This document shows positions 37,605-38,895 of a stretch of DNA of 64,000 nucleotides, one piece after another (the first letter of the stretch is position 1; every line of letters starts with the position of its first letter). The notes beneath the pieces were generated by a model. The model made no database searches. It saw only the letters and a program-made list of their open reading frames with translations, and was not told the origin of the DNA. The stretch is from the NCBI GenBank assembly GCA_024679065.1, contig JAGIQG010000017.1:33418001-33482000 (forward strand). Reading direction: 5' to 3'. The position numbers and the translations under genes are program-made. Source of the DNA: Sphyrna mokarran. Its lineage: Eukaryota.

Positions 37605-37960
37605 ATGTCAGTTGACTCACTCTGTAGCCCTCTCTCCTCCGATGGTCATGGGCTGCAAGGCCTTCCAGAAGCTGAATACACAACTATTGTAGTGTAGTAT
37701 TCCAGTGCAATGGAAAGTGTGTTACCTCTCAGCTAAAACATTAAATTGCGATCCTGCCTGTTTGGATAGACTCAAAAGGTCTTGTGGCATCTACTCATGC
37801 CCCAGCCAATGTGTCTATCTATTAACCCTTCATTGCCAAGAAGCTGATCATACATCTCATTCACTGTTTGTGAGGTTTTGTGACTGTATAACTTGGCTGT
37901 ATGTTTACTCGCTGAATTTTTTGAGGATGTGATAAAGACTATATTGATACACTTTCTTCA
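37605..37960 (+). mobile_element. Deu-domain SINE (SacSINE1/AmnSINE1 type), old
   Basis: Colinear with the Deu body as I recall it: ...aacattaaa...aaaaggtcttgtggcat...ccagccaat...ctgatcat...ctgtttgtgagg...ttggctg...gaggatgtgataaagactatat. Confidence 0.65.
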
Positions 37961-38694
37961 AAGAGGTATACGAATGTGTGTCCTTGGACCACAAAGGAAT
38001 AAAAGGCAAAGGAACTTGAAATTATGAGAAGGAAGTTTTCATTGTGAAAATGAAATGAAGTCTTATGCGTGGCAAAAAGATTTCTCTAGCTAAGGTGGTA
38101 TAAGTTGCTGGGGTGCTGGGGCTGATTTTCAATTGGCAGTTGGGTTGCCATCAATTTTTTGATCATTATAATGGCATAACATTAGCCTTATTGTCCACTG
38201 GAACTGCAATAACTGACCAACAGTTTGTCTATTCAGTGTAAAATTAGAAGTTTAGTGGTAGCAATTGCCTGCTGATCCTGACTTTCAAATGCTGAATGAG
38301 ATCTATTATTTTGGGAAACTTGGAACTAATACCACTATTACTAAGTAATACCACTAGAACTAAGTATTTTTCCTTACTGTTTCCCTCTATGATGAATTGT
38401 AGAGCGTTGGCCTCAACATAGCAGGATTTCTATATCAGTGATCAACAATTAGTGGCATTGTTTCACTGCAACAACAAAAAAATGTTTCCAACCTTTGCAT
38501 CACCACTGAACGAAACACTCATCCATCTCCCAGCACTGTGCATTTTCGTTCAGGTGTTAAGCTATTGAATACGTCCAACAATAAATTAAAATTCTTAAAG
38601 GAAAGTCTTTTTGCTACACCAGATTACATGTGCAGATTTAAATGCCCATGCCTACCCAGCTGAACATTGATGTGCATAGTGTTGAGCAGTATGA

Positions 38695-38895
38695 TTGCAA
38701 AACGTCACAACAGTGAATGAGACACATGGTCAGGCCCTTGGAAATGAAAGGTTGATAAATGGAGGCAAGTTGGCTGGGGCACCAGGAGAACTTCAAATGA
38801 TGCCACAAGATCTTTTGAGTCTATCCAAACAGAAAGGAATGCAATTTAATGTTTCAGCTGAGTGGCAACCTTCCAATGCAACGTTCCCTCAATAC
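38695..38895 (-). mobile_element. Deu-domain SINE fragment, inverted partner of 37705-37880
   Basis: The reverse complement of 38799-38869 matches 37721-37791 at 63/71 nt without gaps. Confidence 0.7.

What the first reader, a model, noticed from the sequence alone, without database searches (positions are those of the whole stretch)
37705..38880. Two ancient Deu-SINEs form a homogenised long inverted repeat inside the transposon-depleted block
Seen: arm A (37705-37880) and arm B (38697-38880) face each other across ~815 nt. The core 37721-37791 matches the reverse complement of 38799-38869 at 63/71 with no gaps, including tttggatagactcaaaag.tcttgtggcatc. Similarity continues through tgccccagccaa, aacc.ttcatt.ccaag and tctcattcactgtt. 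A third Deu copy at 48555-48800 lacks these shared states and follows the family consensus as I recall it. Inference: the arms have co-evolved, through intramolecular gene conversion, local inverted duplication, or selection for a ~175 bp dsRNA stem (ADAR substrate, back-splicing or intron-looping element). They are the only transposon copies I recognise in the constrained block, which favours exaptation.
Basis: partly seen in the sequence, partly recalled or inferred. Interest (0 to 1): 0.75.

Follow-up and report, generated by a model that had tools for sequence, protein, structure and literature searches.

The report
Inverted pair of old SINE remnants
Two badly decayed copies of an ancient jumping-DNA family sit face to face about 800 bases apart and resemble each other far more than their age allows, most likely because one was once overwritten by or copied from the other; nothing in the sequence shows that the pair has a function.

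Summary
The inverted repeat is real: 37705-37880 and 38697-38881 match at 142 of 171 aligned columns (83%, four indels), core 63/71, spacer 816 nt, no third copy in the window. Deu-SINE origin is supported by motif hits and a by-eye reading of a published alignment. At 38 conserved columns A, B and copy C each match 26, so they are equally decayed. Yet A and B share 12 of their 14 departures over 45 columns, while A-C and B-C similarity is marginal or absent. The arms therefore share history after insertion. Function is unsupported: divergence is even along the arm, G-U wobbles show no significant strand bias (6 vs 12), substitution and indel patterns look like other repeats, and the loop holds no good exon. 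Neighbouring V-SINE pairs are not homogenised. Best reading: gene conversion between two neighbouring copies that has since stopped (0.35), close to a one-off inverted duplication (0.28). An unknown subfamily or a selected stem cannot be excluded without genome-wide copies and orthologues. Known kind of event; interest 0.3.

The parts
37705..37880 (+). Arm A: decayed Deu-domain SINE segment, tract shared with arm B (alignable from about 37702)
   Evidence: Deu assignment by eye against the published alignment and through identity to B
38697..38881 (-). Arm B: decayed Deu-domain SINE segment in inverted orientation; carries 11 nt that A lacks (38790-38800)
   Evidence: two Deu motifs at 38844-38861 and 38800-38815
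37721..37791 (+). Ungapped core of arm A, 63/71 to arm B; longest perfect run 21 nt; not significantly better kept than the rest of the tract
   Evidence: core vs inner part Fisher p 0.20; window scans p 0.37-0.61
38799..38869 (-). Ungapped core of arm B
37881..38696 (.). 816-nt unique spacer (the loop); no good acceptor-donor pair on either strand; no Pfam match in 1 spacer ORF tested, no convincing Rfam match
48555..48800 (-). Copy C: independent Deu-SINE remnant, as decayed as A and B, used as the in-window control; not part of the pair
   Evidence: motifs at 48729-48746 and 48689-48704
27120..45880 (.). Block free of the repeat families that recur elsewhere in the window; holds the pair
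37605..37704 (+). Possible 5' continuation of SINE A (head region); resemblance is recalled, not shown by any tool
   Evidence: not significant against C or V-SINE heads
37881..37960 (+). Possible 3' continuation and tail of SINE A; resemblance is recalled, not shown by any tool
   Evidence: A3-C3 156 of 1926 background as good; no informative hit

Best explanation
Two Deu-domain SINE copies inserted about 1 kb apart in opposite orientation (inferred). While still similar they exchanged sequence by intrachromatid gene conversion or template switching, so mutations that arose in one decaying copy were written into the other and both drifted from the family sequence together (the shared departures are shown; the mechanism is inferred). 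Exchange then stopped, and the arms have since diverged independently and evenly to 83% with four indels (shown). At the published shark SINE rate the last full exchange would be roughly 90-100 million years ago (rough inference). The pair can fold into a long stem if transcribed (computed), but the stem is a by-product, not a selected structure (inferred from negative tests).
For: Shared decay: 12 of 14 departures of each arm are the same base in both arms over 45 columns on which the hagfish and amniote Deu rows agree (by eye; statistics). A, B and C are equally far from those columns (26 of 38 each), but only A-B is similar. 83% is above 54 of 55 pairs of the more abundant V-SINE family in the window (mean 74.2%, sd 3.4) and above the other 7 repeat pairs measured (68-79%). 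The tract lies wholly inside SINE-derived sequence, which is about 1-2% of the block, as expected if homology between existing copies guided the exchange. Even spread of mismatches, longest run 21 nt (p 0.41), ts/tv 1.8 against 2.1 and indel density 4 per 170 columns against 2.6 per 100 for V-SINE pairs fit drift after the exchange ended. Precedent: conversion between neighbouring Alus within about 10 kb (PMC8230782 passage); concerted evolution holding divergence down for long periods (PMC6598467 passages); arm homogenisation by template switching (PMC8604942 abstract).
Against: No tool showed that B has SINE sequence outside the shared tract, so a second independent insertion is not demonstrated; similarity ends sharply at both ends (A5-B5 665 of 1911, A3-B3 1399 of 1907 background as good), as a duplication would also give. 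No patch of near identity marks a recent tract. Close V-SINE pairs in the same window are not homogenised: 11 pairs under 4 kb average 71.9% against 74.7% for 44 distant pairs, and the four inverted pairs under 2.3 kb are 67, 72, 79 and 70%. One unlinked V-SINE pair reaches 83.3% and one of 32 has a 63/71 block, so shared subfamily can give such values. The outgroup rows are hagfish and amniote, not shark.
Confidence: 0.35

Rival explanations
1. One-off local inverted duplication: a single, already decayed Deu-SINE (A) was partly copied by template switching or templated repair into a site 0.8 kb away; both copies have drifted since.
For: Explains all shared departures in one step; uniform divergence; sharp ends and no similarity in either flank; no demonstrable SINE sequence beyond the tract in B. 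From recall only, A looks near full length while B looks like an internal piece.
Against: A random templated copy would land on a SINE remnant only about 1-2% of the time in this block, and self-BLAST lists no other repeated pair inside the block. By eye B has a 10-nt match to a published hagfish Deu-SINE upstream of the tract, which suggests but does not prove more SINE sequence there. A new insertion would have had to fix in a block that holds 0 of 57 other repeat hits.
Confidence: 0.28
2. Shared subfamily: A and B are independent insertions of a rare, divergent Deu-derived subfamily; closeness and orientation are chance.
For: 1 of 55 V-SINE pairs reaches 83.3% without being neighbours. Shark SacSINE1 is a large, long-lived family (218,294 copies in elephant shark, 0-49% divergence; PMC5499810). 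The shark consensus itself could not be obtained. Genome-wide copies were not available.
Against: No third copy in 64 kb. The shared changes fall on columns kept from hagfish to amniotes and kept in C at 8 of 10; six of the twelve look like CpG decay in the same direction in both arms, the mark of one decaying genomic copy rather than of an active master (by eye). Two random copies fall within 1.2 kb and inverted about 2% of the time.
Confidence: 0.15
3. Selected structure: conversion plus purifying selection keeps a long stem that works in RNA (ADAR substrate, splicing or back-splicing element) or in single-stranded DNA.
For: The arms pair in both the minimum-energy and centroid folds on both strands; duplex about -215 kcal/mol. 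The pair sits in a repeat-free block. Wobble-compatible transitions lean to the minus strand, 12 against 6, though not significantly (p 0.24). Inverted ancient SINEs do drive back-splicing in mammals (PMC7371899 passages).
Against: No significant strand bias; duplex energies equal (-214.9 and -217.1); best exon candidate in the loop is weaker than 154 (plus) and 137 (minus) of 156 background segments (approximate matrices); mismatches even, with ordinary ts/tv and indel load including an 11-nt bulge; no Pfam match in 58 ORFs tested and no evidence of transcription. Functional inverted MIRs are close to their consensus, unlike these arms.
Confidence: 0.14
4. A composite non-autonomous DNA transposon whose long terminal inverted repeats were captured from a Deu-SINE.
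For: Geometry of 175-nt inverted ends around a unique 0.8-kb interior resembles such elements (general knowledge).
Against: No direct repeat of 5 nt or more across the outer ends; no second copy of arms or spacer in the window; identity falls off rather than peaks at the outer tips.
Confidence: 0.05

Closest known systems
Non-allelic gene conversion between neighbouring Alu SINEs (Aleshin and Zhi 2010, known here only through the summary in PMC8230782; review PMC6598467)
   Same: Nearby copies of one SINE family share non-diagnostic mutations and are more alike than the family average.
   Different: Here the family is far older, the arms are about 31% from the conserved columns yet 17% from each other over the whole tract, and it is a single inverted pair; neighbouring V-SINEs in the same window show no such trend.
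SacSINE1 / LmeSINE1 / AmnSINE1 DeuSINE superfamily (PMC5499810, PMC4824008, PMC7245038)
   Same: Deu core motifs in the right order, strand and spacing in B and C; A through identity with B.
   Different: Only about 175 nt are demonstrable; head and L2-related tail not shown; copies more decayed than the 74-75% average to consensus reported for detected shark copies.
Inverted MIR pairs that drive back-splicing of ciRS-7/CDR1as and other circRNAs (PMC7371899)
   Same: Two ancient SINE remnants in inverted orientation able to form a stable duplex around a spacer.
   Different: Those MIRs are near-consensus, conserved across mammals and flank an exon; these arms are far from consensus, conservation is untested and the loop has no good exon.
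Template-switch homogenisation of inverted-repeat arms (PMC8604942, abstract only)
   Same: Arms made alike by copying one from the other, without selection.
   Different: Described for short repeats in yeast; here 175-nt arms with an 816-nt spacer.

Membership tests
DeuSINE superfamily (SacSINE1-like) | Deu central domain | tested here: met
   Motif hits in B and C in correct order and spacing; 31 of 45 conserved columns matched by each arm, by eye. A not hit by the motifs; third motif no hit.
DeuSINE superfamily (SacSINE1-like) | tRNA-related head with A and B boxes | tested here: inconclusive
   No tRNA call; A upstream region not significant against C or five V-SINE heads. Resemblance is recalled only.
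DeuSINE superfamily (SacSINE1-like) | L2-related 3' tail | tested here: inconclusive
   No reference tail obtainable; in-window scan uninformative.
DeuSINE superfamily (SacSINE1-like) | Assignment to a named shark family or subfamily by consensus comparison | not testable with these tools
   No shark repeat library or genome; supplement of PMC5499810 not held.
Gene-converted neighbouring SINE pair | Shared non-diagnostic mutations beyond the family background | tested here: met
   12 of 14 departures shared; C shares 1 of 10 (by eye).
Gene-converted neighbouring SINE pair | Two independent insertions (SINE sequence beyond the tract in both copies) | tested here: inconclusive
   All six flank comparisons not significant.
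Gene-converted neighbouring SINE pair | Patchy tracts of higher identity | tested here: not met
   Scan statistics p 0.37-0.61, longest run p 0.41; fits only if exchange covered the whole tract and has stopped.
Gene-converted neighbouring SINE pair | Within-species clustering of the arms across orthologues | not testable with these tools
   No vertebrate genomes available.
Back-splicing inverted SINE pair (MIR-type) | Exon with splice sites between the arms | tested here: not met
   approximate matrices: best pair below almost all background segments on both strands.
Back-splicing inverted SINE pair (MIR-type) | Near-consensus, cross-species conserved arms | tested here: not met
   Arms match 69% of conserved columns (by eye); cross-species conservation untested.
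ADAR-edited or otherwise functional long dsRNA | Can form a long duplex | tested here: met
ADAR-edited or otherwise functional long dsRNA | Transcribed in one RNA and edited; pairing conserved | not testable with these tools
   No RNA-seq or orthologues; strand bias of wobbles not significant.
Non-autonomous DNA transposon with long TIRs | Target-site duplication and dispersed copies of the whole unit | tested here: not met
   No TSD, no second copy in the window; genome-wide untested and an old TSD could have decayed.

The most novel reading that the evidence does not exclude
The pair is a self-maintaining regulatory structure: two Deu-SINEs that lost their family sequence together under hundreds of millions of years of mutual conversion, with selection keeping the arms complementary rather than keeping their sequence, so that a long RNA stem or DNA fold works in the regulatory block of a developmental locus across sharks and rays. 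Such elements would be invisible to repeat annotation by consensus and to ordinary conservation scans.
Probability: 0.1. Interest if true: 0.75.

Novelty: new member of a known kind. Interest (0 to 1): 0.3.

Why it matters
If neutral, it is a clean fossil of non-allelic exchange or local duplication in a slow-evolving genome, and a warning that arm-to-arm similarity of old inverted SINEs does not by itself show selection. It suggests a cheap genome-wide test: how often do close inverted ancient SINE pairs share decay mutations? If orthologues showed pairing kept while sequence turns over, it would be a case of exaptation of complementarity rather than of sequence, which the literature searches run here did not turn up for Deu-SINEs or sharks; those searches cover only open-licence papers and preprints.

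Tried and rejected
Looking for more copies in the window with blastn and five nhmmer queries or profiles: none. A motif hit at 6603-6620 is not followed by a Deu core and was set aside as chance. Using C as a statistical outgroup for flanks: too decayed, none of the flank or head comparisons significant. Patchy conversion tracts, strand-biased wobble, loop exon, TSD: all negative. General homogenisation of neighbouring SINEs in this window: not seen (55 of 66 pairs kept, 11 with under 100 aligned columns dropped). Rfam: 0 at gathering score for the window; one weak miRNA-family match in the spacer at E 0.2, far below its cut-off, treated as chance. Pfam: 0 of 58 ORFs tested, out of 155 listed, so the host locus stays unidentified. 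A 21-nt stretch common to both arms has no exact match in the prokaryotic genome collection, which says nothing about shark genomes. A shark SacSINE1 consensus was sought in four papers' supplements and not found (one file was not searchable); only hagfish and amniote Deu rows were found. Aleshin and Zhi 2010 is not held. Metagenome and viral contig collections stayed unchecked.

Full report
Setting. The window is non-coding as far as tested: no tRNA, no Rfam family at gathering score, no Pfam match in 58 of the 155 listed ORFs that were scanned, GC 35-46%, CpG observed/expected 0.17-0.41. It carries many decayed repeats. I read the commonest family as the shark V-SINE HE1 and the genome as an elasmobranch; these labels are recalled and come from no call. 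Profiles of 11 repeat families that recur in the window gave 57 hits at E<0.01, some overlapping, and none lies in 27120-45880 (two hits at E 0.58 and 0.66 do). The nominal P is 3e-9, optimistic because insertions cluster. Depletion of recognisable repeats is real; constraint is inferred, not measured.

The observation. Arm A and the reverse complement of arm B align at E 8e-33. Over 37705-37880 they match at 142 of 171 columns (83%), with 18 transitions, 11 transversions and indels of 4, 11, 2 and 1 nt; K2P distance 0.195. The ungapped core is 63/71 as stated, and the spacer is 816 nt. No third copy is found with single-arm or profile searches. Similarity stops at both ends: outer flanks 665 of 1911 and inner flanks 1399 of 1907 background segments score as well.

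Are they Deu-SINEs? Copy C cannot establish this alone: it is invisible to A and B by blastn and nhmmer, and a permissive alignment is marginal for A (10 of 940) and not significant for B (135 of 940). Supplementary file 1 of PMC7245038 (passages) prints a Deu-domain alignment of hagfish SINEs and AmnSINE1. A motif from its 5' core gave 3 window hits against 0.38 expected, two in B and C. A second motif, not significant by itself (3 hits, 4.57 expected), falls 46 nt (B) and 42 nt (C) downstream on the same strand, against 44-54 nt in the published rows. A third motif found nothing, and A was hit by none. By eye, over three anchor segments with 45 columns on which the EbuSINE1 and AmnSINE1 rows agree, A and B each match 31. 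I left out the first ten columns and the gap-rich stretch, where the register is ambiguous. The Deu label is therefore supported. Head and tail are not demonstrable; that A looks near full length is recall only. No shark consensus could be read.

Shared history. Of the 14 departures in each arm, 12 are the same base in both, one column differs in both to different bases, and each arm has one private change. Expected identical overlap for independent copies is about 2.6; the overlap P is 3e-9, and 3e-4 when CpG-linked columns are removed (hand counts). C covers 38 of the columns, matches 26, exactly as A and B do there, and of the 10 shared A/B departures keeps the published base at 8, shares one and has a third base at one. 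Independent copies at 69-75% to a master should be 53-60% alike (shark SacSINE1 copies average 74-75% to consensus, PMC5499810 parts 2-3 of 6). Six of the twelve shared changes look like CpG decay in the same direction. This points to one decaying genomic sequence as the common ancestor of both arms. Against this: the outgroup rows are not shark, and among 55 V-SINE pairs (of 66; 11 short ones dropped) one unlinked pair reaches 83.3%, and one of 32 has a 63/71 block, so an unknown subfamily is not excluded.

Is exchange continuing, or the stem selected? Mismatches are evenly spread (core against inner part p 0.20; five window scans p 0.37-0.61; longest run 21 nt, p 0.41). Transitions that would be G-U pairs number 6 on the plus strand and 12 on the minus strand (p 0.24). 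The arms pair in folds of both strands, with duplex energies of -214.9 and -217.1 kcal/mol; any 83% inverted repeat would do so. Ts/tv (1.8) and indel density (4 in 170 columns) resemble V-SINE pairs (2.1; 2.6 per 100). The best acceptor-donor pair in the loop is matched or beaten by 154 (plus) and 137 (minus) of 156 background segments, with approximate matrices from memory. There is no TSD. Close V-SINE pairs are not homogenised: 71.9% for 11 pairs under 4 kb against 74.7% for 44 distant ones, and 67-79% for the four close inverted pairs. So this is a single event or episode, not a general trend in the window, and nothing marks it as selected. These are weak tests on one pair; they do not exclude function.

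Mechanism. Shown: shared departures, even later divergence, sharp ends. Inferred: how the sharing arose. Conversion between two existing copies (0.35) is favoured slightly because the tract lies wholly within SINE-derived DNA, about 1-2% of the block, and because the block otherwise holds no recognisable insertion. One-off inverted duplication of part of A (0.28) fits the sharp ends and the lack of demonstrable SINE flanks in B equally well. Together these neutral DNA-level routes carry about 0.63. Subfamily 0.15, selected stem 0.14, SINE-derived terminal repeats 0.05. At 1.0-1.1e-3 substitutions per site per million years the arms last matched about 90-100 million years ago; the slower rate quoted there gives about 600 million years and was rejected by its authors, and a constrained block would bias the estimate.

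Known systems. Conversion among neighbouring Alus within about 10 kb is described (PMC8230782, four passages; the primary paper is not held), as is prolonged concerted evolution of TE copies (PMC6598467, passages) and arm homogenisation by template switching (PMC8604942, abstract). Inverted MIRs drive back-splicing, but through near-consensus arms around an exon (PMC7371899, passages), neither of which holds here. PMC4824008 (passages and supplement search), PMC5753468 (two passages) and PMC5804259 (supplement search) gave background only. Nine searches (listings only unless named above) showed no report of a homogenised inverted Deu-SINE pair; subscription papers, figures and preprint supplements were out of reach, and the unseen supplement of PMC5499810 holds the alignments that would settle the head, tail and subfamily questions.

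Verdict. A real, well-supported oddity: an inverted pair of old SINE remnants that decayed together. It is a new instance of a known kind of event, with no evidence of function. Interest 0.3; the reading that complementarity itself is under selection has probability about 0.1 and would deserve about 0.75.

Noticed in passing
window 8385-8478 and 10093-10186: A second inverted pair with no other copy in the window at E<0.01, 74 of 94 identical, 1.6 kb apart; recalled as the end of a common shark repeat, so probably two ordinary family members.
   Followed up: partly
window 37494-37528: A 35-nt purine-rich stretch between a moderate acceptor and one of the strongest plus-strand donor-like sites of the block, 170 nt upstream of arm A; could be a small exon or chance.
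   Followed up: no
window 31550-31850: Cluster of strong splice-like sites on both strands beside a 98-codon open frame with no Pfam match; possible non-coding exon or promoter region inside the repeat-free block.
   Followed up: partly
window 59490-59639 and 61150-61298: Direct repeat pair (73-77%) 1.6 kb apart around open frames rich in acidic residues (60304-61067) with no Pfam match; possibly a decayed mobile element.
   Followed up: partly
window 46590-46902 and 54365-54642: Two V-SINE-like copies 7.5 kb apart, same orientation, 83.3% alike, the top of 55 pairs; shared subfamily or another exchange.
   Followed up: partly
window 36981-37010 and 38101-38130: Two similar 30-nt stretches (73%) ending in a motif I recall from ends of shark miniature DNA elements; may be older remnants inside the block, one within the spacer.
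   Followed up: no
window 27120-45880: CpG observed/expected is higher in much of the block (0.26-0.41 in 4-kb bins) than in most bins outside (0.17-0.30), in line with a regulatory, less methylated region; host gene not identified.
   Followed up: partly
window 44532-44623: CA-rich microsatellite near the right edge of the block.
   Followed up: no
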